DNA of 19,234 bases from a virus, in the UHGV virus genome UHGV-1599518; one strand, 5' to 3'. Below are positions 508-19,234 of this stretch, one piece after another. The stretch's first letter is position 1. Every line of letters starts with the position of its first letter. A model generated the notes under the pieces. The model was not told the origin of the DNA and searched no databases. It saw only the letters and a list, made by a program, of their open reading frames with translations. Position numbers and translations under genes: made by a program.

Positions 508-1451
508 TAGCAATACCTTTCGAATGGAAGAACAAACACTTCAAGGTCTTCAAGGAACGAACGGAAATTCAGCTCGTAGCACAGTTGCTCGAATGCTTTC
601 ACGTCACGATTGCCTTTGATTGTTTCGATTTCGGTAGGCGGAAACTTCGTCTCAATCAGGTTCATTAGCGTGATGTTTCTCTTGAACGCTTCGAGCATTC
701 GACAGCCTGTTTTCTCGTTGAAGGCATTCTTCGCTAGTTTGTTGAAGGCGGTCTTATGGCGTCCTTTGTCAACCACGATTGAGCCGTCGTTGATGCCGCG
801 TACCATCGTTGCGACACTTCCCCATTCATGCAGCAGCTCTTTCGCACCGCCAGCACCAATGCCACCAACACCGCTAATGTTGTCCGATTTATCGCCTTGT
901 AATGCTTTTGCTTCCAAAAATGCGCGAGGAGTAGCGAATCCTGTCAGCTCCGCAAATTGCTCAAAATTAACCTGCTTGTTTTTGGCGTCTTCGCGCAGGC
1001 TTACCCAGCTTACGTTTTCGCGAACTAACTGAAGCCAGTCGCTATCGCCTGTTAACAGATAGATGTGTTCAACGGTTGGCTGCGGTGCCATGCGGGATAC
1101 CAGCAGCCCGGCCAGATCATCCGCTTCTGCATCTTTTGCAATGAGTTGGGTAACTCCAAGCGCGGTCATCATTTTGAGGATGTATGGCTTCTGGATAGCA
1201 AAGCCTTCCTTCATCTTTTTCATATCAGGATCGTCGTCGCGATTTGCTTTGTAGTCCGGGTAAAAGTCGCGACGCTTGTCACTAAATCCATCCCAAAGAA
1301 TCATAGGTCGGGCATGGAGGATGGAGGCATAACGACGGACGTTCTTAACAAAGCCGAAAGCAGCCTGTACTTCCATTTCGCCGTTGTGCAATTTGTCAGA
1401 TTGTTGGTGGTAATAACCCAGGCTATTGCCATCTACGAAGAGATAATTCAC
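507..1451 (-). CDS. 5'-3' exonuclease / flap endonuclease (Pol I 5'-nuclease family)
   Basis: Translation contains NYLFVDGNSLGYY, EADDLAGLLV, LLTGDSDWLQLV and GDKSDNISGVGGIGAGGAKELL, the conserved blocks of bacterial/phage 5' nucleases. Start placed at GTG 1451..1449 (SD GGAAGG 9 nt upstream) rather than the track's GTG at 1502, because an intrinsic terminator occupies 1466..1496. Confidence 0.8.
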   Translation of the reverse strand: MNYLFVDGNSLGYYHQQSDKLHNGEMEVQAAFGFVKNVRRYASILHARPMILWDGFSDKRRDFYPDYKANRDDDPDMKKMKEGFAIQKPYILKMMTALGVTQLIAKDAEADDLAGLLVSRMAPQPTVEHIYLLTGDSDWLQLVRENVSWVSLREDAKNKQVNFEQFAELTGFATPRAFLEAKALQGDKSDNISGVGGIGAGGAKELLHEWGSVATMVRGINDGSIVVDKGRHKTAFNKLAKNAFNEKTGCRMLEAFKRNITLMNLIETKFPPTEIETIKGNRDVKAFEQLCYELNFRSFLEDLEVFVLPFERYC

Positions 1452-1465
1452 CGGTACATTCCTTC

Positions 1466-1496
1466 CAAAAAGTAAGGCGTCCGTAGACGCCTTACT
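1466..1496 (-). terminator. Rho-independent terminator downstream of the SSB gene
   Basis: On the minus strand, 15 nt after the SSB stop: perfect 11-bp stem AGTAAGGCGTC / GACGCCTTACT with loop TACG, followed by TTTTG. Confidence 0.55.
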
Positions 1497-1511
1497 GGTC
1501 ACGTAATGGGA

Positions 1512-2540
1512 TTACAGAGAGTCCAGCTCTCTCAGTAGGTCATCCAGACCTTCATCTTCCGTCGCAGATGCGGTTGCTACAGATGTCGCTGCGACTGCTT
1601 CAGACTCTTTGACTGATACGGCAACGGCAGCGGAGCTTGCTTCTGGTTTAAATTCAGTTTCAACGGCACGGAGGATTTCTTCATCAACCAGACTGGTTGG
1701 TTCAGAAGCCGGTGTGTGCGCGGTTGCTACAGCCGTCGCACCTTCTGTATGACCAGTGACAGAGCCAAATCCAGGTAGTGCCGCAGCCGATGTTTTCGCG
1801 GTTGAGGAAATTGCTGGTGCAGATGCTGCGGCAGTTGGTGCAGCGATGCCAATCAGACGACCCATAGTGCGAACTGTCGACAGAAGACGAGTTTCATCAG
1901 CCTGATTTGCGTATGCGATCAGATCATGCTGGGTGTTCCAGAATTTATCTTCGATATCGCCTTTGTAGACTTTACGCTTAGGCGAGACGTCATATTTGGT
2001 ATCGCGACCAGAGCCAGTACGTTTAATCAGGAATGCGTAGCCTTCCTCTTTGCTCAGTGGATTGCCGATATCATCAGCGATGTCTTCGGTGATTGCTTTG
2101 CAGATATCATCGAATACAGTAGACGGCAGCTCGATTAACTGGCATTTCTCAGCATCTGCGAAATCCTCACGAGCAGAAAGAATGCCGTTGACCAGGTAGC
2201 GAGGAGTGGCACGCATTTGACCGATGCGTTCTTCCATTGCTTTGTTACCCTTGTGACGAGCGCGACCTTCCATAACCATTTCGCATAGCTGACAAGCGCG
2301 ACCGTGAGTATGTTGCTCACAAATATAAGCGTTGGTTGCTTCTTTACCTTCCTCGTTCTGATACTTAACGTAGTGCATACCGAAAGTCTGGAAGAACTTA
2401 CCGTTTGGGTCGTCTTTATTCGGGAAGATGCGGATATAGTTGACGCCGTCTTTTAAGCGAGTCAGATCAACGTTGTTGCCACGTTTGGCGGCAATGTCTT
2501 CACGAGTTTTGTTAAGCAAATCAAGTAATGTCTTAGACAT
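1512..2540 (-). CDS. ssDNA-binding protein, phage T4 gp32-like
   Basis: ATG at 2540 with SD AAGGAG. N-terminal region IRIFPNKDD...CEQHTHGRACQLC has the gp32-like Cys/His zinc-site pattern, followed by a long Ala/Ser/Thr-rich linker and an acidic tail EDEGLDDLLRELDSL resembling the T4 gp32 C-terminus (from memory). Confidence 0.8.
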   Translation of the reverse strand: MSKTLLDLLNKTREDIAAKRGNNVDLTRLKDGVNYIRIFPNKDDPNGKFFQTFGMHYVKYQNEEGKEATNAYICEQHTHGRACQLCEMVMEGRARHKGNKAMEERIGQMRATPRYLVNGILSAREDFADAEKCQLIELPSTVFDDICKAITEDIADDIGNPLSKEEGYAFLIKRTGSGRDTKYDVSPKRKVYKGDIEDKFWNTQHDLIAYANQADETRLLSTVRTMGRLIGIAAPTAAASAPAISSTAKTSAAALPGFGSVTGHTEGATAVATAHTPASEPTSLVDEEILRAVETEFKPEASSAAVAVSVKESEAVAATSVATASATEDEGLDDLLRELDSL

Positions 2541-4308: not shown

Positions 4309-4521
4309 TTGCATGAAAAGAAGGGGTATGCGTTAATAGCATCGTTGGTTTGCAAGACAGACCTTATGTAAGCAGTTTTAGTAAAGCAGTCTCAGTTCAG
4401 TGTTATCTTCTGATTTCCCTTCTTCGTGAGTCTCCTCCTTAAGTGCCTAAGTAAGTCCCAATCTATACAGATCAAATTCTCGCCGCACTATGTGGCTCAC
4501 AAAATTAAGAAGGTAATATCT
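4309..4521 (+). promoter_or_regulatory. cspA-type promoter (TTGCAT-17-GTTAAT with upstream AT-rich UP-like element) and long 5' UTR
   Basis: TTGCAT at 4309..4314 and GTTAAT at 4332..4337; ~180-nt leader with segments resembling the E. coli cspA leader (cold-box-like TTGCAAGACAGACC, AAGTAAGTCCCAATC; from memory). Confidence 0.55.
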
Positions 4522-4737
4522 ATGTCTAATAAAATGACTGGTTTAGTAAAATGGTTTAACTCTGATAAAGGCTTTGGCTTTATTTCTCCTGCTGATGGCA
4601 GTAAAGATGTTTTTGTACATTTTTCGGCAATTCAGAGTAATAATTTCCGCACTTTGGAAGAAGGCCAGCAGGTCGAATTCTCTATCGAGAATGGGGCTAA
4701 AGGCCCAGCAGCAGCAAATGTCGTTGCTCTAAGCTGA
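4522..4737 (+). CDS. cold-shock protein, CspA family
   Basis: [38 protein letters not shown]...[10 protein letters not shown] contains the RNP1/RNP2 motifs of CspA-family proteins. The ORF-track ORF starts upstream at 4426; the conserved start is the ATG at 4522. Confidence 0.95.
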
Positions 4738-5012
4738 TTCAACGCTGATGATCCTCATTTCTACAATAACGAAGACGGTGTAAGCCTGAGTGGATAGATT
4801 TGTAGGATTGTACAAGTTGAATAAATTAGCATGGTAAGGCCATGCTAATTAAATCGACACAACGGCCAGTTTATTCCATAAAAGTGAATTGCCCATTGTG
4901 GCGAAATGCGGGGTTGCCGCATGAATAGTCAAAGGCAGAAGCTAACTGCCGGCATGGCAAAACAAAGTGCGTAAGAGGAGTGACTTCCTCAACAAGCGCC
5001 ATAATTCTTTAT

Positions 5013-12741: not shown

Positions 12742-13128
12742 ATGTCTGATAACAAGATTGAATTTATAGAAAGTCGCTACGCTGCTTTTATCGCAGGGTT
12801 GATTGAATCCTCACCTATGAGCCAGGCCCAGATAGCCAAAACAATTGGGTATAAAAACGCCAACAACCTTTCTTTAATTAAAAGCGGCAAAATTCCTTTG
12901 CCTATCGATAAGGTTCGTCCGCTGGCGCTGGCACTGGGCATTGAGCCAAGTCGTCTTATGATGATGGTGCTGGAAGAACGCCAACCCGAACTCGCAGCAT
13001 TTTTATACAAAGAAGGCACTGCTCCTCTTAACGAGGACGAAAAACAGGTTCTTGCTGCATATAACGAGCGATTCGGTAAAGAGAAAGGCGCATCACAAAA
13101 GGTTGTTGAGGCCATAAAGTCTCTATGA
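12742..13128 (+). CDS. XRE-family helix-turn-helix transcriptional regulator
   Basis: HTH segment MSQAQIAKTIGYKNANNLSLIKSGKIPLPIDKVRPLALALGIEP. ATG 12742 with SD AAAGG. The 3' end overlaps the convergent integrase gene by 6 nt. Confidence 0.75.
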   Translation: MSDNKIEFIESRYAAFIAGLIESSPMSQAQIAKTIGYKNANNLSLIKSGKIPLPIDKVRPLALALGIEPSRLMMMVLEERQPELAAFLYKEGTAPLNEDEKQVLAAYNERFGKEKGASQKVVEAIKSL

Positions 13129-14226
13129 AAAATTTACACGAATAAGCTCTGTTGATAGACGATCTCCCTTAAATTTGTGGTCAATTTCGTCTAAATCCGG
13201 TTGCTCTACGATTGATGCGATGTACGTCGAGAAACTTTCTAAGGCGTCTCGCATCTCGTCCATATAATCGTGCCGGTCGTAGACCCGATCTATCCCCTCA
13301 AGACTGTGGTTCATGATTTTACGTGATACCTCCTGGCTTATGCCTAATGCTGGGAAGTAACTACGCGCAGTACGGCGCAAATCTCGGGGTGTAAATGGCT
13401 CAAGCTCCATCAGTTCTGGTCGTTCCAGAATACGACGTAATGCCTGGGCTATTGCCACTTTAGACATAGGAAGGTCTTTCCCGATTTTTTTATTCGAAGG
13501 CACGAGCCACTGGCTGTCTTTACCATATTCGAACAACTCTTCAATACAAGTGCGCATTAATGAGCTTAAAGGCAGAGAATGCTCACGGGCAGATTTGTTC
13601 CTCTTGCCTTGATTCCAAACCCCACGCTTAAGATTGAACTCACTTTTTTTAGCCCGCAGTACTTCGTCAGGTCGTCTTGCGGATACAAGACATAGCCTGG
13701 CCGCCCATTTTGTACCAGCACACACATTGAAGTAGTCCCATATATTCCAGAACACCCATACCTCTGCGTCGGTCAGCTTCCGCTCGCGAGGTGTGGGCTT
13801 TGCGCCACCGGCAACTTTGTTAAGTGACATATCGTTTAACGGTGACACGTCTATCATCCCCTGGAAGGCGCACCAGCTAAGGAACTGCTTCATCAGAGAG
13901 AAAACGCGGCGGCCCATAACAATTTTGCCATCCAGTATTAGTGGGTTGACCAGTTGGTTCACCATGAACCTATTAATGTCACTTACTTTTACATCGGCAA
14001 TGTGCGGCAAAACATGTATCAAAATACAATGAACAGCGATCTCTGGCCGACGTCTGGTTATCAGCAGAGATAAGCGAGTGAATAACATGAATGCGTCCGA
14101 GAATCTCATGTCATTGCTGACCTGGGAGATCATAACGGCCTGCATTTGAGATGCTCTTTCGAGATACTCTATCGCCTCTTTTGAGGTGTTCTCCGCAGCG
14201 CGTGCGCTGTCAAAGCTATTTTTCAT
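13123..14226 (-). CDS. int: tyrosine recombinase / phage-type integrase
   Basis: Catalytic-domain blocks LVSARRPDEV (Arg), HSLPL, FTPRDLRRTARSY and NHSLEGIDRVYDRHDY (His...Tyr) match the tyrosine recombinase R-H-R-Y active-site layout. Confidence 0.85.
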   Translation of the reverse strand: MKNSFDSARAAENTSKEAIEYLERASQMQAVMISQVSNDMRFSDAFMLFTRLSLLITRRRPEIAVHCILIHVLPHIADVKVSDINRFMVNQLVNPLILDGKIVMGRRVFSLMKQFLSWCAFQGMIDVSPLNDMSLNKVAGGAKPTPRERKLTDAEVWVFWNIWDYFNVCAGTKWAARLCLVSARRPDEVLRAKKSEFNLKRGVWNQGKRNKSAREHSLPLSSLMRTCIEELFEYGKDSQWLVPSNKKIGKDLPMSKVAIAQALRRILERPELMELEPFTPRDLRRTARSYFPALGISQEVSRKIMNHSLEGIDRVYDRHDYMDEMRDALESFSTYIASIVEQPDLDEIDHKFKGDRLSTELIRVNFS

Positions 14227-14855: not shown

Positions 14856-15764
14856 ATGATTGGTAAGTTGTCTGATTCTTTGATTGAAAATAAATACAAC
14901 GAATTTAGAGAAGAAATATCTTTACTTTTTGATTATTTAAATCAGATAAATGATACAACAAAGAAAAATATAAAACGTCTTCTTAAAGAAGTGGAGTATG
15001 CACAGAATCCAGATACTATTATTAATATTAATGAAACTATTAAGATTAAGTGTGGCACAACGTTAGCTCGCCATTTATGTTCAAACCCATATACAGGTTC
15101 AACATTAGAGATAGGTAACAGCGCCATTGATTTAGAAGAAAAGATAAGATTGTGTAATACTTTGAAAAATAAACAATATCAGTGGGTTATTACTGAAGCC
15201 TATGAGTTACTGGAAGACTATATTGAGGCAATATATGTCTATACTGTATGTGTTCGAAATGATTTATGGTCCTCAAGTGATTTTGGTAAGGTTGAAGATG
15301 ATGAAATTGGGAAAAGGGAAGTTTATTACAGATTATTAAAAGCAAAAAGTAACCCATCGAAAAAAATAACTAAAATTTTCAGAAATAAAATACCTGGCTT
15401 CAAAGAGATAGAAACAAACAACAAGATTGGCAAAAACTATCGCTTTAACATCAAGCTAATTGAACTACTAAGACATACAATAGTACACAATAGTGGACGA
15501 TTCAATGATACAGAAAAATTTATAAATAAGGTTTTAGATGAATCTGAAATAAACGGTAAGAAAAGAGTTATTGGAGAAAGAGCTGTTAGAAGTTACATTA
15601 CTAAAGTGCAAGAAGATGATATTGTGATGCTCTTAGAAAGACCATCTGAAATTTTAGGTTCTTTTGGTGGGTATTTTAACAGAGCAAAATTTTTACTAAG
15701 TGATATTTTAGAATACTCACTAATCATTAAAGAAGAACTAAAATCATATCTAGGCAATCATTAA
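14856..15764 (+). CDS. AT-rich hypothetical protein (302 aa) with HEPN-like Rx4H motif; candidate Abi-like RNase
   Basis: ATG 14856 with SD AGAGG 5 nt upstream and its own terminator. By eye ~25-30% G+C against ~50% for neighbours. Lys/Asn/Ile-rich; motif ELLRHTIVHNSG fits the HEPN R-[NHQ]-x3-H signature. Opposite strand to both neighbours. Confidence 0.7.
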   Translation: MIGKLSDSLIENKYNEFREEISLLFDYLNQINDTTKKNIKRLLKEVEYAQNPDTIININETIKIKCGTTLARHLCSNPYTGSTLEIGNSAIDLEEKIRLCNTLKNKQYQWVITEAYELLEDYIEAIYVYTVCVRNDLWSSSDFGKVEDDEIGKREVYYRLLKAKSNPSKKITKIFRNKIPGFKEIETNNKIGKNYRFNIKLIELLRHTIVHNSGRFNDTEKFINKVLDESEINGKKRVIGERAVRSYITKVQEDDIVMLLERPSEILGSFGGYFNRAKFLLSDILEYSLIIKEELKSYLGNH

Positions 15765-15765
15765 C

Positions 15766-15795
15766 AAAAAAGGGGCCGAAGCCCCTTTGGATTTT
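15766..15795. terminator. bidirectional Rho-independent terminator
   Basis: AAAAAA-AGGGGC-CGAA-GCCCCT-TTGGATTTT, with A-run and T-run flanks; serves the AT-rich gene (plus) and the tRNA operon trailer (minus). Confidence 0.65.
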
Positions 15796-15864
15796 GCGCT
15801 TAAAAAAGTGTTGCTAGGATGTTAGCAAGCTATATGGTTAAGAACGTCTGCCGTAATTGTCTAT

Positions 15865-15942
15865 CACAGCGTTGAGCGGTCTGGTTTATGTTAGCGGAGT
15901 CTTAATCGAGTTGATTAAAAGGCCAAACCGCTCAACGCTGTG
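15865..15942. other. long stem-loop element (20-bp stem, one mismatch, 38-nt loop) 2 nt beyond the tRNA-Ser 3' end
   Basis: 5' arm CACAGCGTTGAGCGGTCTGG (15865..15884) pairs with CCAAACCGCTCAACGCTGTG (15923..15942). Strand of any RNA product not determined; the tRNA operon is minus. Confidence 0.4.
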
Positions 15943-15944
15943 TC

Positions 15945-16031
15945 TGGCGGAGAGTAATGGAATCGAACCATCATCGTTTGCACAATGGGACGGTTTTCAA
16001 GACCGCTTGAGCACCATGCTCCCTACTCTCC
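15945..16031 (-). tRNA. tRNA-Ser (anticodon UGA), class II with long variable arm
   Basis: Minus-strand sequence GGAGAGT...ACTCTCC-G-CCA: 7-bp acceptor stem, anticodon stem GCGGT/ACCGT with loop CTTGAAA, 17-nt variable arm, T-arm GATGG-TTCGATT-CCATT, encoded CCA. Manual fold, no tRNAscan run. Confidence 0.85.
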
Positions 16032-16131
16032 AGCTATTGTGATGGTCGGTACTGAACTCCGACACAGGGTTGTAGCAAGCCCCGCAAAGCGCGCACTACT
16101 GTAGTTGCGGCACATCAGCCTGTGCATTCAT

Positions 16132-16216
16132 CACAACGGTAAGATCACTACCTTTCGACCAGTCATTGTGCACATGAACGACGATTAACCGTAATGATAT
16201 TATCGTTGTGTTGTGA
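16132..16216. other. long imperfect inverted-repeat element A (paralogue of element B)
   Basis: 5' arm CACAACGGTAAGATCACTAC versus 3' arm GTAATGATATTATCGTTGTG (3 mismatches/wobbles). Shares the 5' 14-mer TCACAACGGTAAGA with element B. Confidence 0.3.
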
Positions 16217-16261
16217 AGCCAGATGCTTATCTTCTGGTTGCTTCAAAGAGCTGCACTTCCT

Positions 16262-16350
16262 CACAACGGTAAGAGCACTGGTCTGACTCTATCGATTTAC
16301 GGCCTTGTGGGTCAGTATCGCCGATTCGCCCAATGCTCTTACCTGTTGTG
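16262..16350. other. long inverted-repeat element B, abutting the tRNA-Thr 3' end
   Basis: 5' arm CACAACGGTAAGAGCA pairs with 3' arm TGCTCTTACCTGTTGTG (16 bp with one bulged A), enclosing ~56 nt. Ends 1 nt from the tRNA-Thr 3' end. Confidence 0.35.
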
Positions 16351-16351
16351 T

Positions 16352-16427
16352 TGGTGCCGGTTAACGGACTTGAACCGCTGGCCATTCGCTTACAAAGCGA
16401 CTGCTCTACCAACTGAGCTAAACCGGC
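16352..16427 (-). tRNA. tRNA-Thr (anticodon UGU)
   Basis: Minus-strand GCCGGTTTAGCTCAGTTGGTAGAGCAGTCGCTTTGTAAGCGAATGGCCAGCGGTTCAAGTCCGTTAACCGGCACCA: canonical 76-nt cloverleaf, anticodon loop TTTGTAA, T-loop TTCAAGT, encoded CCA. Anticodon stem has one G-A mismatch (27-43). Confidence 0.85.
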
Positions 16428-16431
16428 AATT

Positions 16432-16518
16432 TGGTGGGGAGTGATGGAGTCGAACCACCCGAGTCGCCATGACAGTAGATTTACAGTCTACACCGCTACC
16501 TCTACGGACTAACTCCCC
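16432..16518 (-). tRNA. tRNA-Tyr (anticodon GUA), class II with long variable arm
   Basis: Minus-strand GGGGAGT...ACTCCCC-A-CCA: anticodon arm GTAGA-CTGTAAA-TCTAC, T-arm GGTGG-TTCGACT-CCATC, long variable arm. Separated from tRNA-Thr by 4 nt. Confidence 0.85.
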
Positions 16519-16523
16519 TAAAT

Positions 16524-16561
16524 GGGGTTTGAGGGCCAATGGAACGAAAACGTACGCTAAG
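16524..16561. repeat. 38-bp terminal inverted repeat of a Tn3-family transposon (Tn1000/gamma-delta-like)
   Basis: GGGGTTTGAGGGCCAATGGAACGAAAACGTACGCTAAG has the GGGG outer end and TGGAACGAAAAC core typical of Tn3-family IRs (from memory). The tnpA stop codon lies inside it. Confidence 0.85.
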
Positions 16562-19234
16562 AAGTTAATTCATTGTTTAAATTGAAATTTAGTTCTCTCA
16601 GTTCCCCCTTCAAAATATCCTCCGGTAGCGTAAACGTATAATGCCCCAGCATATTGATATGCCCGTGCATCAGTGGGGACAACCGGGCGATATCTTCAAC
16701 CCCGATTTCTTCTCCATTACTGCGTATCCAGCTCAGGGCTTCCTGCATATAAAGTGTGTTCCACAGTACCACTGCGTTAGTGACCAGGCCCAGTGCCCCC
16801 AGCTGATCTTCCTGACCTTCACGATAGCGCTTTCTGATCTCACCGCGCTGCCCGTAGCAGATCGCCCTCGCCACAGCATGGCGGCCTTCCCCCCGGTTTA
16901 GCTGCGTCAGGATCCGCCGACGATAATCCTCATCATCAATATAATTAAGAAGGTACAGCGTCTTGTTGACGCGCCCCACTTCCATGATCGCCTGTGCCAG
17001 CCCTGATGGGCGCGAGCTTTTCAGCAAAGAGCGAATGAGTTCTGAAGCATGAATGGTGCCCAGTTTCAGCGAACCGGCGGTTCGCATCATCTCATCCCAC
17101 TGATCCTCGGCTTTCGACAGATCGGCACAACCACGTGCCAGTTCGTCCAGTGCACCGTAATTTGCCGATTTATCCACTCGCCAGAATACCGCTTCACCGG
17201 CATCGGCAAGCCGGGGGGAAAACTGGTATCCCAGCAGCCAGAAGAGGCCAAAAATAATGTCGCTGGTACCGGCTGTGTCTGTCATGATCTCAACCGGATT
17301 CAGCCCTGTCTGCTGCTCCAGAAGGCCTTCCAGCACAAAAATGGAATCTCGTAATGTGCCGGGGACAACGATGCCGTGGAATCCAGAGTACTGATCAGAG
17401 ACGAAGTTGTACCAGGTGATGCCACGTCCGGAACCAAAATATTTTCTGTTAGGTCCTGAATTGACGGTTTTCACCGGCGTGACAAAGCGCATGCCATCAG
17501 CTGAAGCCACTTCGCCACCACCCCAGCGGCCAGCAAGCTCCAGTGTGGACTGAAAATCAACCAGGCGGGCATTGGCGCTGACCAGCGTTTCTGCCCGGAG
17601 GTAATTCTGTTTTACCCAGCTAAGCCGGTGGCGCGTCAGCGCCGGTATATTGTGCTTTATCAGCGGTTCCAGCCCGATATTGCAGGCCTCTGCCATCAGG
17701 ACCGCGCACAGGCTGATGTGCAGATCCTGTGCCCGGGCCCCGGATTCACTGACATGCGTAAACTCACGTGTAAATCCCGTTCTGGCATCTATTTCAAGCA
17801 ACAGTTCCGTCAAATCTACTGGCGGGAGTAGCAGCCTTACCCGACTGTTGAGACGATGCAACGATGGTGGCTCCTCCAGTTTCTCCAGGCTGCTGATAGT
17901 CAGGGAAGGATGTTTACCGTCATGGCAAATATGAACCTCCGCATTTCCTTCAAAGCGGGATGCGACGGTTTTCCAGGTTTCATCTAGCTGGACCGCCAAC
18001 TGTTGCACGCCTTTATGTCCATCAGTGGGATGTCCCAGCGCCCGGCAAACGGGGACCCGCTGAGCCTGCCATTCTTCCCCCTGCAACAGCTTCTCGCGGG
18101 GATTTCCCCAGCGATCGCTGTTTTCGAGCCAGATGTCCCTTCGACGTAGTGCATCCTGAAGGCGCTCCAGCAGACAAAGCGAGTAACCGGCACGCTGTAT
18201 CCGGCCCTCCGCATCGTATACCAGGCGTTTCCAGGGGCCGGTAATAATATGTTCAGGCGCATTGTCCAGGATGCGCTTTTTCGAGCCGTTCAGTTCGGTC
18301 AGATAATGAATGGCGGACAACGTATGTTCTCCGGCTGGCGCTGCCTGGAAATGCAGGTCGCGCAATACCGCCGGAAGAAAGCGCTTTACCCGCCCGTACT
18401 GCTCCACCATTTCGTCATGGAAATTGTTGTTCTGAGGCCGGGCCAGCTCATTTACCTTGCTGACGGATTCTGCCAGCCTGCTTTTCGGTATGCTGTTGAA
18501 TATGGTCTCCCTCAGTTCAGCATCGTCAGCCTGTTCATCCAGCAACAATGAACATGCCCGCGCCAATATTAGCGCAGCACGATCAAGATCTTTAAGCGTC
18601 CTGAGCCGTTTTTTCTGCCCCGTTTTCTTCGCCGCACGAGTGATATCCAGTATCAGCATATCGAGCACATCAACGGCCTCATCCAGCGCCGCAGTCTCCT
18701 GCGCTTTAACGAATGCTGTGAGTACGGCCAGTTTTCTCTGCTGTGGCATTCGCGCGATATATTTTACCGACGCCATGCCTGCGTAACGGGCCAAATTACG
18801 CAGTTGTATAGCAGGCAGACCGGTAAAATTCAGTCGGGAAAATTCCAGGTTTCGCAGCCGGATATATCGCTCCAGCGCTTCGGTAAATGCCGGGCCGCTG
18901 ACGGTGACCGGTCCCTTTTTCAGTTGCTCCAGCGGTGAAGTACGCTGCCCCTCAGGAATGTCCAGAAGCTCCGTCACGCGGGCGGTCTGCCAGCTGTCCG
19001 GCAACGCGGCCAGTTTCTTCCACAGCCGCTGATTTGCCCGTTCGCGTATTTCACTGACGAGACGTACAAGTGTGGTTGCTCCGGGCAGCAGGACCTTATT
19101 CTGAAGCAGCCACGCGGTGGCAAAATCAAACATAAGGCCGGGTCGCTCATTACTGAGCCATGCGCGGGTGTACAGCAGGCGCTTCAGGCGGAAAGACCAG
19201 GGGAAATCGCCAAATTCATGGTAACCGTAATATT
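16557..19234 (-). CDS. tnpA: Tn3-family transposase TnpA (C-terminal ~890 aa; N-terminus beyond the right window edge)
   Basis: ORF-track 858-aa ORF 16557..19133, and the frame stays open upstream to the window edge (…YHEFGDFPWSFRLKRLLYTRAWLSNERPGL before the track's Met). Blocks such as GGGEVASADGMRFVTPV, GITWYNFVSDQYSGFHGIVVPGTLRDSIFVLEGLLEQ and LYLLNYIDDEDYRRRILTQLNRGE are characteristic of Tn3-family TnpA. Confidence 0.95.
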   Translation of the reverse strand, partial: YYGYHEFGDFPWSFRLKRLLYTRAWLSNERPGLMFDFATAWLLQNKVLLPGATTLVRLVSEIRERANQRLWKKLAALPDSWQTARVTELLDIPEGQRTSPLEQLKKGPVTVSGPAFTEALERYIRLRNLEFSRLNFTGLPAIQLRNLARYAGMASVKYIARMPQQRKLAVLTAFVKAQETAALDEAVDVLDMLILDITRAAKKTGQKKRLRTLKDLDRAALILARACSLLLDEQADDAELRETIFNSIPKSRLAESVSKVNELARPQNNNFHDEMVEQYGRVKRFLPAVLRDLHFQAAPAGEHTLSAIHYLTELNGSKKRILDNAPEHIITGPWKRLVYDAEGRIQRAGYSLCLLERLQDALRRRDIWLENSDRWGNPREKLLQGEEWQAQRVPVCRALGHPTDGHKGVQQLAVQLDETWKTVASRFEGNAEVHICHDGKHPSLTISSLEKLEEPPSLHRLNSRVRLLLPPVDLTELLLEIDARTGFTREFTHVSESGARAQDLHISLCAVLMAEACNIGLEPLIKHNIPALTRHRLSWVKQNYLRAETLVSANARLVDFQSTLELAGRWGGGEVASADGMRFVTPVKTVNSGPNRKYFGSGRGITWYNFVSDQYSGFHGIVVPGTLRDSIFVLEGLLEQQTGLNPVEIMTDTAGTSDIIFGLFWLLGYQFSPRLADAGEAVFWRVDKSANYGALDELARGCADLSKAEDQWDEMMRTAGSLKLGTIHASELIRSLLKSSRPSGLAQAIMEVGRVNKTLYLLNYIDDEDYRRRILTQLNRGEGRHAVARAICYGQRGEIRKRYREGQEDQLGALGLVTNAVVLWNTLYMQEALSWIRSNGEEIGVEDIARLSPLMHGHINMLGHYTFTLPEDILKGELRELNFNLNNELTS

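What the first reader, a model, noticed from the sequence alone, without database searches (positions are those of the whole stretch)
15865..16350. Long stem-loop elements immediately abutting the 3' ends of tRNA genes, two of them paralogous
Three large inverted-repeat structures sit in the tRNA cluster: 15865..15942 (20-bp stem, 2 nt from the tRNA-Ser 3' end), 16262..16350 (16-bp stem, 1 nt from the tRNA-Thr 3' end) and 16132..16216. Elements A and B share the identical 5' 14-mer TCACAACGGTAAGA, yet differ inside, as expected for structure-conserved RNAs. None folds as a canonical tRNA (no T-loop found in 16032..16351). They are too long and GC-poor to be ordinary terminators. Phage T4's tRNA region is known to contain stable small RNAs of unknown function, so these could be processed stable RNAs, 3'-trailer processing signals or protein-binding sites.
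Basis: seen in the sequence. Interest (0 to 1): 0.55.

Follow-up and report, generated by a model that had tools for sequence, protein, structure and literature searches.

The report
Conserved phage RNA clamp hairpins
The three stem-loops beside the tRNA genes are real and belong to a widespread, undescribed family of phage RNA hairpins, also present in phages lambda and P1, that most likely mark where a long non-coding transcript is cut into separate tRNAs and small RNAs.

Summary
The three hairpins exist and are transcribed-strand (minus) structures. A (15865-15942) and B (16262-16350) start 2 and 1 nt after tRNA-Ser and tRNA-Thr. C (16132-16210) follows a spacer, not a tRNA.

All three are copies of one "clamp": 5'-CACAAC(A)GGUAAGAGCAUUG...CAGUGCUCUUACCGUUGUG-3', about 20 bp, enclosing a variable interior. 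The same clamp occurs in over 100 IMG/VR phage contigs, in the phage P1 ban operon, and in lambda directly after the tR' terminator.

Evidence that the clamp is the selected unit:
- 11 of 18 pairs show compensatory changes.
- G-U outnumbers A-C 41 to 5 on the tRNA strand.
- 27 unrelated interiors sit between nearly invariant arms.

Rfam has no model for it, and none is a tRNA or a terminator.

Best explanation (confidence about 0.5): double-stranded processing stems, most probably RNase III sites, that separate tRNAs and small RNAs in a polycistronic transcript. An 1988 paper title reports RNase III sites in the lambda late transcript. I could not read it, so the link is unverified.

Between C and tRNA-Ser lies a second conserved pseudoknotted module (16039-16134) that resembles the prophage sRNA STnc100.

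Verdict: observation confirmed, interpretation partly supported, a new variant of a known kind, moderate interest.

The parts
16432..16518 (-). tRNA-Tyr(GUA), first gene of the array that remains in this plasmid
   Evidence: ARAGORN; Rfam tRNA 41.6 bits
16352..16427 (-). tRNA-Thr(UGU). Its CCA end is 1 nt from clamp B.
   Evidence: ARAGORN; Rfam tRNA 69 bits
16262..16350 (-). Clamp hairpin B. RNA 5' arm 16350-16330 (CACAACAGGUAAGAGCAUUGG), 3' arm 16281-16262 (CCAGUGCUCUUACCGUUGUG). About 20 bp with a bulged A and one U-G wobble. Interior of about 48 nt.
   Evidence: -38 kcal/mol, z = -5.6; I4; type-1 arms shared with lambda and P1; covariation
16217..16261 (-). Spacer S1 (GGAAGUGCAGCUCUUUGAAGCAACCAGAAGAUAAGCAUCUGGCUU). 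Identical to P1 and D6 apart from one base next to clamp B's 3' arm (G in the window, U in P1/D6), although the adjacent tRNA-Thr differs. Not unusually stable alone.
   Evidence: Alignment A1; fold z = +0.95
16132..16216 (-). Clamp hairpin C. Arms 16210-16191 and 16151-16132, preceded by an extra CACAA box at 16216-16211. Degenerate copy with two mismatches. Its 3' arm is the paralogue of B's 3' arm.
   Evidence: -24.3 kcal/mol, z = -2.35; D2, I2; variants
16039..16134 (-). Module M2. Closing helix GUGAUG/CAUCAC, then AAU, a 5' hairpin GCACA-GGCUGA-UGUGC, a variable interior, and a 3' hairpin GUCGG-AGUUCAGUA-CCGAC. The two hairpin loops are complementary (kissing loop or pseudoknot). It overlaps clamp C's 3' arm by 3 nt.
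   Evidence: 33 distinct frames, 98.1% of cells paired, 9 of 21 pairs compensatory, 0/500 shuffles. Not detected by Rfam.
15945..16031 (-). tRNA-Ser(UGA). Its CCA end is 2 nt from clamp A.
   Evidence: ARAGORN; Rfam tRNA-Sec model 44.8 bits, below threshold
15865..15942 (-). Clamp hairpin A. A 20-bp stem (CACAGCGUUGAGCGGUUUGG / CCAGACCGCUCAACGCUGUG) of a covarying arm subtype. The interior holds the conserved motif GACUCCGCUAAC.
   Evidence: -40.6 kcal/mol, z = -10.3; I1; variants with a compensatory A-U to G-C change and a conserved loop motif
15802..15864 (-). Conserved 3' tail after clamp A (UGAUAGACAAUUACGGCAGACGUUCUUAACCAUA...), ending in a weak hairpin (15828-15810) and a U6 tract (15807-15802). 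It could be the 3' external spacer of the array or an sRNA body.
   Evidence: Conserved across A-type variants; read from the sequence. The hairpin plus U6 is not called by the terminator scan.
15769..15788 (-). Strong intrinsic terminator (AAAGGGGCUUCGGCCCCUUU plus a U run) that closes the array.
16524..16561 (.). Terminal inverted repeat of a Tn3-family transposon, inserted 5 nt upstream of tRNA-Tyr. It cuts off the tRNA-Asn, an upstream clamp and the native promoter that relatives keep. The transposase gene (16557-19133, minus strand) reads toward the array.
   Evidence: Homology to relatives stops at window 16523-16526; alignment with pGMI17; Pfam DDE_Tnp_Tn3, E = 6.9e-151; repeat read from the sequence

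Best explanation
The three stem-loops are copies of a conserved phage RNA 'clamp'. It is a duplex of about 20 bp, formed in the transcript of the tRNA strand, that brackets a short variable insert. It sits at the borders between functional RNAs in a long untranslated transcript.

Proposed mechanism:
1. The array tRNA-Tyr, tRNA-Thr, B, spacer, C, M2, tRNA-Ser, A, terminator is made as one transcript. This step is inferred.
2. RNase P separates closely spaced tRNAs at their 5' ends. This is established knowledge for tRNA operons, not tested here.
3. The last tRNA of each run has no downstream tRNA. The duplex that starts 0-4 nt after its CCA is cut by a double-strand-specific endonuclease, most probably host RNase III. 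This step is inferred.
4. That cut leaves a short 3' trailer for exonucleolytic trimming. It frees the downstream RNA with a defined 5' end, and releases the capped upper hairpin as a by-product or small RNA.

In lambdoid phages the same clamp sits directly after the tR' terminator. There it would detach the 6S-type leader from the late transcript.

Shown here: the structure, its strand, its covariation, its fixed positions, and its presence in lambda and P1.
Inferred: transcription in this plasmid, and cleavage by RNase III.
For: 1. Stability well beyond shuffles for A and B, and modest for C.
2. One family: the same arms occur in P1 and D6, in lambda at 44,789-44,863 directly after tR', and in over 100 IMG/VR contigs per arm pattern.
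3. Covariation across 29 distinct arm pairs: 93.3% of cells paired against 78.9% in shuffles, 11 of 18 pairs compensatory, score 0.465 against 0.183, 0/500 shuffles; slid controls 34-61%.
4. Strand: 41 G-U against 5 A-C cells in tRNA-sense orientation. The array ends at a minus-strand terminator. In P1 the homologous stretch lies inside the annotated C1-controlled ban operon, on the tRNA strand.
5. The stem is the selected part: 43 distinct type-1 elements carry 27 unrelated interiors of 29-129 nt, while 32 of 43 share an identical 5' arm. Identity between otherwise unrelated late regions resumes exactly at CACAACAGGTAAGAGCATTG.
6. Boundary positions: 0-4 nt after tRNA 3' ends, just after tR'-type U-tracts, or after M2.
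7. Duplex length of about 18-22 bp matches what E. coli RNase III cuts as a double cleavage in intramolecular stems (PMC6212723).
8. [quoted passage not shown] Apart from tR', the clamp has the longest combined paired stem in that leader, about 20 bp. One search reports it as two pieces (I4 15 nt at 80%, I5 13 nt at 85%) and also lists shorter repeats I2, I3 and I6.
9. Not a tRNA, not any Rfam family, not a terminator. The opposite-strand P1 ORFs plp and upl are broken in relatives.
Against: - No transcript, end-mapping or rnc-mutant data for any copy were available.
- I could not read the 1988 lambda paper, so the mapped RNase III sites may lie elsewhere in the leader.
- RNase III needs no particular sequence for a 20-bp duplex. 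The near-invariance of the arms, including a conserved bulged A and a conserved U-G wobble, is therefore more than this explanation requires. It hints at a more specific partner, or at recombination between arms.
- P22 and 933W manage without the clamp.
- Element C is imperfect in this window.
- In this plasmid a Tn3-family insertion has removed the native upstream region, so expression depends on read-through or an unseen promoter. No sigma-70 site lies in 15700-16650.
- The published RNase III position matrix could not be obtained to score the stems.
Confidence: 0.5

Rival explanations
1. The hairpins are small stable RNAs in their own right. The clamp would be a protective or protein-binding handle, and the variable interior would be the working part, for example a decoy, sponge or base-pairing RNA. 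They would resemble the T4 species 1 and 2 RNAs that follow tRNA-Arg.
For: - The T4 layout is the same: rnaD starts 1 nt after tRNA-Arg, and rnaC has paired ends and a T-arm.
- A conserved bulge and a conserved U-G wobble in the clamp suggest specific recognition.
- Element A has a conserved loop motif GACUCCGCUAAC and a conserved tail ending in a hairpin plus U6.
- T-loop-like motifs are enriched in interiors: 5 of 27 clusters against 0.34 expected.
- One interior resembles a hammerhead core (24.7 bits).
Against: - The interiors are unrelated to each other and vary from 29 to 129 nt, so no common function can reside there.
- There is no covariation data for the window's own interiors, which differ among relatives by only a few substitutions.
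- No common phage protein partner is encoded near the P1, lambda and phage-plasmid copies.
- A perfect duplex of about 20 bp is unlikely to survive RNase III in vivo. This rests on established knowledge (PMC6212723).
Confidence: 0.2
2. The conserved arms matter mainly at the DNA level. They would be short homology 'linkers' at which phages swap modules, and the RNA hairpin would be incidental.
For: - Mosaic junctions fall exactly at the arms. Lambda, L268 and L208 are nearly identical upstream and in both arms but have unrelated interiors.
- The same interiors turn up in different arrays.
- The arms are conserved in sequence beyond what pairing needs.
Against: - Arm subtypes differ by compensatory changes that keep pairing: 11 of 18 pairs. 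Homology linkers do not need that.
- The strong G-U over A-C bias (41 to 5) points to one transcribed strand.
- Arms of 17-20 bp are very short for homologous exchange.
- The positions are tied to RNA ends rather than to gene borders in general.
Confidence: 0.1
3. The processing hairpin is recognised by a different nuclease, such as RNase P (as with the long-hairpin 4.5S RNA precursor or the P1 C4 RNA precursor) or RNase E/G. Cutting at the base of the stem would make the tRNA 3' end directly.
For: - The stem starts 0-4 nt after the CCA with striking regularity.
- Several homologues stack a T-arm on the clamp's 3' strand, like an acceptor/T minihelix (P1 B', L198).
- That RNase P cuts hairpin substrates in E. 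coli and P1 rests on my own knowledge and was not checked here.
Against: - The window's own elements have no T-arm.
- No RCCA follows the 3' arm; the sequence after it is AU, AG or GU.
- A fully paired 5' leader is a poor RNase P substrate. This is general knowledge.
Confidence: 0.1
4. The elements are decaying remains of tRNA genes with no present function.
For: - T-arm-like hairpins occur in homologous interiors.
- Remnants of the tRNA-Thr 3' end (AACCGGCAC-A) precede some clamps.
- In P1 the tRNA-Ser position is occupied by an unrelated stretch.
Against: - The tRNA model does not hit any element, even at E <= 1.
- The clamp arms are under purifying selection with covariation. They are found in lambdoid leaders that have no tRNA genes at all.
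Confidence: 0.05
5. The hairpins are single-stranded-DNA recombination sites of the integron attC type, so the tRNAs and small RNAs would be mobile cassettes.
For: - The elements begin with ...AAC and end with GTT..., and they are imperfect palindromes of 65-130 nt with variable centres.
- A tyrosine recombinase gene lies 1.6 kb away.
Against: - CACAAC and GTTGTG do not fit RYYYAAC and GTTRRRY.
- The stems are fully paired, with no unpaired central spacer.
- The recombinase matches generic phage integrase models only, not an integron integrase.
- The P1 and lambda copies have no integrase nearby.
Confidence: 0.02

Closest known systems
RNase III processing sites in the phage lambda late transcript (Daniels, Subbarao, Blattner, Lozeron 1988, Virology 167:568; seen only as reference 49 of PMC7547250)
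   Same: Lambda carries a type-1 clamp at 44,789-44,863, directly after tR' and before gene S. Its arms are nearly identical to window element B. If the mapped sites lie in it, the window elements are paralogues of a known RNase III site.
   Different: I could not read the paper, so the coordinates are unverified. The window copies follow tRNA 3' ends rather than a terminator. The family-wide pattern of invariant arms and unrelated interiors, and its spread to P1 and phage-plasmids, is not described in anything I could search.
RNase III processing stems of rRNA operons and of T7 early mRNAs
   Same: A long duplex at the border between functional RNAs of one polycistronic transcript. Double cleavage releases neighbours with defined ends (general knowledge; PMC6212723).
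   Different: There is no sequence relation. rRNA stems enclose a large functional RNA, whereas these enclose 29-129 nt of unrelated sequence. T7 sites carry internal loops, whereas these are almost perfectly paired, with one bulge and one wobble.
Phage T4 small stable RNAs, species 1 (rnaC) and species 2 (rnaD)
   Same: They lie directly 3' of a tRNA in a phage tRNA cluster, with gaps of 1 nt and 6 nt. rnaC has paired termini and a T-arm beside its 3' strand, as do the P1 homologue of element B and L198. Their function is also unknown.
   Different: The clamp motif is absent from the T4 tRNA region. The window's A, B and C have no T-arm. rnaD is not unusually stable (z = -0.83).
STnc100 (Rfam RF02076) and PasD prophage sRNAs
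   Same: This comparison applies to module M2 (16039-16134), not to the clamps. The architecture is the same: closing helix UGGUG/CACCA, then AAU, a 5' hairpin, a variable middle and a 3' hairpin CCGG..CCGG. The sRNAs sit in the same setting near Q antiterminator genes (PMC13192938).
   Different: The STnc100 model does not hit the window at E <= 10. It reaches only 33-40 bits, against a gathering score of 47, on the P1 and D6 terminal module. M2 has a loop-loop helix that is not in the STnc100 consensus line.
tRNA 3' external-spacer sRNAs such as 3'ETS-leuZ of E. coli (my own knowledge, not checked here)
   Same: Clamp A, its conserved tail and the hairpin plus U6 form the 3' external spacer of the tRNA array. 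They could persist as an RNA after tRNA-Ser is released.
   Different: There is no evidence of Hfq binding, of targets or of accumulation. The element begins with a 20-bp duplex, which 3'ETS-leuZ lacks.

Membership tests
E. coli RNase III intramolecular substrates | Intramolecular duplex of about two helical turns (about 20 bp) | tested here: met
   A has 20 bp. B has 6 + 14 bp around a bulged A. C has about 20 positions with two mismatches. Family stems have 17-22 pairs.
E. coli RNase III intramolecular substrates | The duplex forms in a transcribed RNA, on the strand in question | tested here: inconclusive
   G-U against A-C is 41 to 5 on the tRNA strand. A minus-strand terminator follows. 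The P1 homologue lies inside the annotated ban operon. No expression data exist for the window, and the native promoter was removed by a Tn3-family insertion.
E. coli RNase III intramolecular substrates | rnc-dependent staggered double cleavage (2-nt 3' overhang) in vivo or in vitro | not testable with these tools
   Needs RNA end-mapping in rnc+ and rnc- hosts, or enzyme assays. Only the title of the 1988 lambda study was seen.
E. coli RNase III intramolecular substrates | Base-pair preferences around the cleavage site (proximal, middle and distal boxes) | not tested
   The position-specific table of PMC6212723 is not held.
tRNA (RF00005) | Cloverleaf with D, anticodon and T arms that scores above the model threshold | tested here: not met
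   ARAGORN and Rfam find only the three annotated tRNAs. No sub-threshold tRNA hit falls on A, B, C or M2, nor on the P1, D6 or L198 homologues at E <= 1.
Intrinsic (Rho-independent) terminators | G+C-rich short hairpin followed directly by a U run | tested here: not met
   The scan finds only 15788-15769. A, B and C are followed by AU, AG or GA, not by U runs.
T4 species 1 / species 2 type tRNA-cluster stable RNAs | Located directly 3' of a tRNA in a phage tRNA cluster | tested here: met
   A is 2 nt and B is 1 nt after a tRNA. T4 rnaD is 1 nt after tRNA-Arg.
T4 species 1 / species 2 type tRNA-cluster stable RNAs | Sequence or structural homology to rnaC or rnaD (terminal helix plus T-arm for rnaC) | tested here: not met
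   The clamp and M2 motifs are absent from the T4 region. The window elements lack a T-arm. Only the P1 and L198 homologues share the T-arm layout.
Integron attC sites | R''/R' cores RYYYAAC and GTTRRRY, an unpaired central spacer, extrahelical bases, and a nearby integron integrase | tested here: not met
   The cores are CACAAC and GTTGTG. The stems are 93% paired. The local tyrosine recombinase matches generic integrase models only.
STnc100 (RF02076), considered for module M2 only | Score at or above the Rfam gathering threshold of 47 bits | tested here: not met
   No hit in window 15700-16600 at E <= 10. The P1 and D6 terminal module scores 33.4 and 39.6 bits.
Bacterial Y RNA (YrlA, RF02553) | Ro-binding terminal stem plus a tRNA-like domain; model score of at least 69 bits | tested here: not met
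   The only hits are 15-26 bits and overlap true tRNAs.
Hammerhead ribozyme (RF00163), for one homologous interior (L102), not in the window | Score at or above the gathering threshold of 34 bits; CUGAUGA and GAAA core | tested here: inconclusive
   L102 2138-2184 scores 24.7 bits, E = 0.12. The core motifs are visible in the sequence.

The most novel reading that the evidence does not exclude
The clamp is a dedicated 'cassette holder'. An invariant, specifically recognised duplex (bulged A, fixed U-G wobble) presents interchangeable small RNA cargos. These cargos include tRNA-like T-arm modules, a hammerhead-like core and unrelated hairpins. The cargos would be excised by RNase III and would act in trans, for instance as decoys or sponges against host tRNA-targeting or RNA-targeting defences. 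The identical arms would also let phages swap cargos by short-homology recombination. Together with the pseudoknotted M2 modules, temperate enterobacterial phages would then carry a modular, fast-evolving non-coding RNA arsenal in their late leaders and tRNA arrays.
Probability: 0.15. Interest if true: 0.8.

Novelty: new variant of a known kind. Interest (0 to 1): 0.5.

Why it matters
If the explanation is right, one short RNA element ties together three things:
- the untranslated late leader of lambda
- the ban-operon tRNA cluster of P1
- the tRNA arrays of SSU5/pHCM2-type phage-plasmids

It would explain how phage tRNAs that lack a downstream tRNA get their 3' ends. It would also explain where prophage small RNAs of the STnc100/PasD kind get their 5' ends.

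The family is absent from Rfam. In P1 it is masked by two probably spurious ORF annotations, upl and plp. Defining it would therefore improve phage and plasmid annotation.

The pattern of invariant arms and unrelated interiors is unusual for a processing site. It can be tested directly in lambda and P1, the two best-studied temperate phages.

Tried and rejected
- Rfam at gathering and E-value thresholds on the window and on 40 related loci found only tRNAs, int-alpA, and sub-threshold STnc100, Hammerhead and YrlA hits.
- Literature searches for the motif, for P1 ban-operon tRNAs, for lambdoid structured RNAs and for T4 species 1 with RNase III found nothing on this element.
- The Pas sRNA preprint concerns Hfq-type sRNAs with terminators, not these hairpins.
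- The 1988 lambda RNase III paper is not held. The lambda GenBank records carry no processing-site feature.
- E. coli K-12 cryptic prophages DLP12 and Qin lack the clamp, so published K-12 RNase III maps cannot help.
- A two-arm pattern scan of GTDB species representatives gave one Escherichia hit plus three chance-like hits, so taxonomic breadth remains unresolved.
- P22, 933W and the T4 tRNA region lack both the clamp and M2.
- The first 14-mer scan of viral contigs returned mostly chance matches.
- My first hairpin catalogues were too permissive and had to be filtered by arm motif.
- The RNase III base-pair table needed for scoring is not held.
- A 9-bp complementarity between C's loop and the tRNA-Ser variable arm (I6) is no more than chance would give in 900 nt, by my own estimate.
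- Rejected readings: tRNA, terminator, attC site, Y RNA, and coding sequence on the opposite strand (P1 plp and upl are broken in relatives).
Full report
**Observation**

ARAGORN finds three tRNA genes, all on the minus strand: Tyr 16432-16518, Thr 16352-16427 and Ser 15945-16031. Rfam confirms Thr and Tyr above threshold.

Folded as minus-strand RNA they give:
- A (15865-15942): -40.6 kcal/mol, z = -10.3.
- B (16262-16350): -38.0 kcal/mol, z = -5.6.
- C (16132-16216): -24.3 kcal/mol, z = -2.35.

A begins 2 nt after the CCA of tRNA-Ser, and B begins 1 nt after the CCA of tRNA-Thr. C follows a 45-nt spacer, not a tRNA.

The shared 14-mer belongs to the elements at 16131 and 16261 (D2), not to the one at 15865. 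On the transcribed strand it is the 3' arm. None of the elements is followed by a U run. The only terminator-like site is 15788-15769 on the minus strand. No Rfam family other than tRNA reaches even E = 0.01 in 15700-16600.

**Where the window comes from**

The stretch is 100% identical to a 113-kb E. coli plasmid. It is 96-99% identical to about 50 plasmids of 107-120 kb.

The neighbouring genes encode:
- a DnaE-type polymerase
- CobS/CobT-like proteins
- a gp32-like protein
- a 5'-3' exonuclease
- a tyrosine recombinase
- a cold-shock protein with a cspA thermosensor leader

This is an SSU5/pHCM2-type phage-plasmid.

Homology to relatives stops at window 16523-16526. There the terminal repeat of a Tn3-family transposon begins, 5 nt upstream of tRNA-Tyr. 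Relatives without the transposon carry a tRNA-Asn and one more hairpin of the same family upstream.

**The hairpins are one family found in many phages**

Part of the region aligns with phage P1, P7 and D6. In P1 the region is the stretch of the C1-controlled ban operon between trnT and tciA. Two ORFs, upl and plp, are annotated there on the opposite strand.

In the alignment the outer stems are conserved while the interiors are unrelated. Scans of IMG/VR with either arm returned more than 100 contigs each. Many are lambdoid prophage contigs of about 40 kb without any tRNA gene.

In those contigs the element lies between a Q-type antiterminator gene with its terminator and the lysis genes. Phage lambda itself has a copy at 44,789-44,863, starting 9 nt after the U-tract of tR'.

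P22, 933W, the T4 tRNA region and the K-12 cryptic prophages lack it.

**What is conserved**

I took 29 distinct arm pairs and replaced the unalignable interiors with a GAAA linker. The 18-pair helix then shows:
- 93.3% standard pairs, against 78.9% in shuffles (0/500)
- 11 pairs with compensatory changes
- a covariation score of 0.465 against 0.183
- 34-61% pairing when the 3' partners are slid

The window's A and C are covarying arm subtypes of the same helix. A U-G wobble at one position is kept in 16 of 29 sequences.

In tRNA-sense orientation there are 41 G-U cells and 5 A-C cells. The structure is therefore read on the tRNA strand. The sequences are related, so these counts are not independent events.

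Among 43 distinct elements with GGTAAGRG arms there are 27 unrelated interior clusters, 29-129 nt long. Yet 32 of the 43 share an identical 5' arm.

In an alignment of lambda with four prophages, identity between otherwise unrelated late regions resumes exactly at CACAACAGGTAAGAGCATTG. Near-identical phages differ only in the interior.

Clamps start in one of four contexts:
- 0-4 nt after a tRNA 3' end
- just after a tR'-type U-tract
- after the M2 module
- after a remnant of the tRNA-Thr 3' end

**Interiors**

Several homologous interiors contain T-arm-like hairpins: P1 B', L198, L007 and L019. A T-loop-like motif occurs in 5 of 27 interior clusters against 0.34 expected.

One interior (L102) has a hammerhead-like core that scores 24.7 bits, below the threshold of 34.

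The window's own interiors have no such motif, and they vary too little among relatives for a covariation test. Element A is an exception in one respect. Its loop motif GACUCCGCUAAC and its 3' tail are conserved across two arm subtypes.

**A second module**

Between C and tRNA-Ser lies M2 (16134 to 16039, minus strand). It has a closing helix, two hairpins with complementary loops, and a variable middle.

Across 33 distinct frames, 98.1% of cells pair and 9 of 21 pairs show compensatory change (0/500 shuffles). The loop-loop helix is supported by one doubly compensated sequence.

MFE folding does not flag M2 (z = +0.54), as expected for a pseudoknot.

Rfam does not detect it in the window. The terminal module of the P1 and D6 arrays has the same architecture and hits STnc100 at 33-40 bits, against a threshold of 47. 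STnc100 and PasD are prophage sRNAs found near Q genes (PMC13192938).

**Mechanism**

The conserved, covarying unit is a duplex of about 20 bp, placed at RNA borders in an untranslated polycistronic transcript. That is the anatomy of a double-strand-specific processing site.

E. coli RNase III makes staggered double cuts in intramolecular stems of this size (PMC6212723).

[quoted passage not shown] Apart from tR', the clamp has the longest combined stem in that leader. One search splits it into two shorter pieces and lists three other short inverted repeats. I could not read the paper, so this link is a lead, not a result.

I therefore propose that the clamps are RNase III-type processing stems. 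They would release the last tRNA of a run with a short trailer, and give the downstream RNA (M2, the next module, or the late mRNA) a defined 5' end.

Steps shown: structure, strand, covariation, position, family membership.
Steps inferred: transcription in this plasmid, and the identity of the nuclease.

The arms are more invariant than RNase III requires. That leaves room for a more specific partner, or for arm-to-arm recombination that exchanges interiors.

**Rivals**

| Rival | Main evidence against it | Confidence |
|---|---|---|
| Stable RNAs in their own right (T4-like) | Interiors are unrelated; a perfect duplex should be labile | 0.2 |
| DNA-level recombination linkers | Compensatory changes and the G-U strand bias | 0.1 |
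| Another nuclease, such as RNase P | No T-arm or RCCA in the window copies | 0.1 |
| Decayed tRNA genes | Purifying selection on the arms; presence in tRNA-free leaders | 0.05 |
| attC-like sites | Cores, pairing and recombinase type do not fit | 0.02 |

An opposite-strand coding reading is also rejected. P1 Plp and Upl have no intact counterparts in close relatives: stops, frameshifts and fragments in different frames interrupt them.

**Comparison with what is known, and novelty**

The closest known items are:
- the lambda late-leader RNase III sites (same sequence family if the coordinates agree)
- RNase III stems of rRNA operons and T7 early RNAs (same logic, no homology)
- the T4 rnaC and rnaD RNAs (same position, and a shared T-arm layout with the P1 homologue, but no shared motif)
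- STnc100/PasD, for M2

No Rfam model or searchable paper describes the clamp family, its hypervariable interiors, or its occurrence next to tRNAs in P1 and phage-plasmids. I rate it a new variant of a known kind, of moderate interest. It is testable at once in lambda and P1.

Noticed in passing
window 16039-16134 (minus strand): Module M2 is a conserved structured RNA. It has a closing helix, two hairpins with complementary loops and a variable middle. It is found in at least 45 distinct versions across phage contigs and is not in Rfam. Its architecture resembles the prophage sRNA STnc100 (RF02076).
   Followed up: yes
window 16524-16561 and 16557-19133: A Tn3-family transposon (terminal repeat plus DDE transposase) is inserted 5 nt upstream of tRNA-Tyr. 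It separates the array from the tRNA-Asn, an upstream clamp hairpin and the native promoter seen in relatives such as pGMI17-003_2. The transposase gene reads toward the tRNAs.
   Followed up: partly
L001 (phage P1 NC_005856) 1376-1945, plus strand of the locus: The annotated P1 genes upl and plp lie antisense to the clamp and M2 array. Plp is cysteine-rich and has no intact counterpart in close relatives, where stops and frameshifts break it. These annotations are probably spurious.
   Followed up: partly
window 4344-4762 (plus strand); ORF 4426-4737: A plasmid-borne cold-shock protein gene has a full-length cspA thermoregulator 5' leader (Rfam RF01766, 185.7 bits). The ORF has a CSD domain (E = 4e-33).
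   Followed up: no
window 16217-16261 (minus strand): The spacer between clamps B and C is identical to P1 and D6 apart from one base at its edge next to clamp B (G in the window, U in P1/D6), although the adjacent tRNA-Thr differs at many positions. It is not unusually stable when folded alone (z = +0.95). The reason for its conservation is unknown.
   Followed up: no
window 15802-15864 and the loop of element A (about 15886-15922), minus strand: The loop motif GACUCCGCUAAC and the 3' tail after clamp A are conserved across two arm subtypes. The tail ends in a weak hairpin plus U6, upstream of the strong terminator. This could be a tRNA 3'-spacer-derived small RNA.
   Followed up: partly
L102 2138-2184: One clamp interior in a prophage contig contains CUGAUGAG...CGAAAC. 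It scores 24.7 bits on the type I hammerhead model, below the threshold of 34.
   Followed up: partly
L035, L088 and L002, immediately 5' of clamps: Short hairpins ending in AACCGGCAC(U)A precede some clamps. They look like remnants of the tRNA-Thr T-arm and acceptor 3' end. This suggests that 'tRNA-Thr end plus clamp' units have been copied and have decayed.
   Followed up: no
L298 (lambda) 1053-1147: In lambda the clamp's 3' arm GUUGUGCUG can alternatively pair with CAGCACAAC 67 nt downstream. In the arrays, CACAAC and GUUGUG boxes alternate. Neighbouring helices may therefore compete or stack.
   Followed up: no
window 13123-14226 (minus strand): A tyrosine recombinase gene lies 1.6 kb from the array. 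It matches generic phage integrase models, not an integron integrase.
   Followed up: partly
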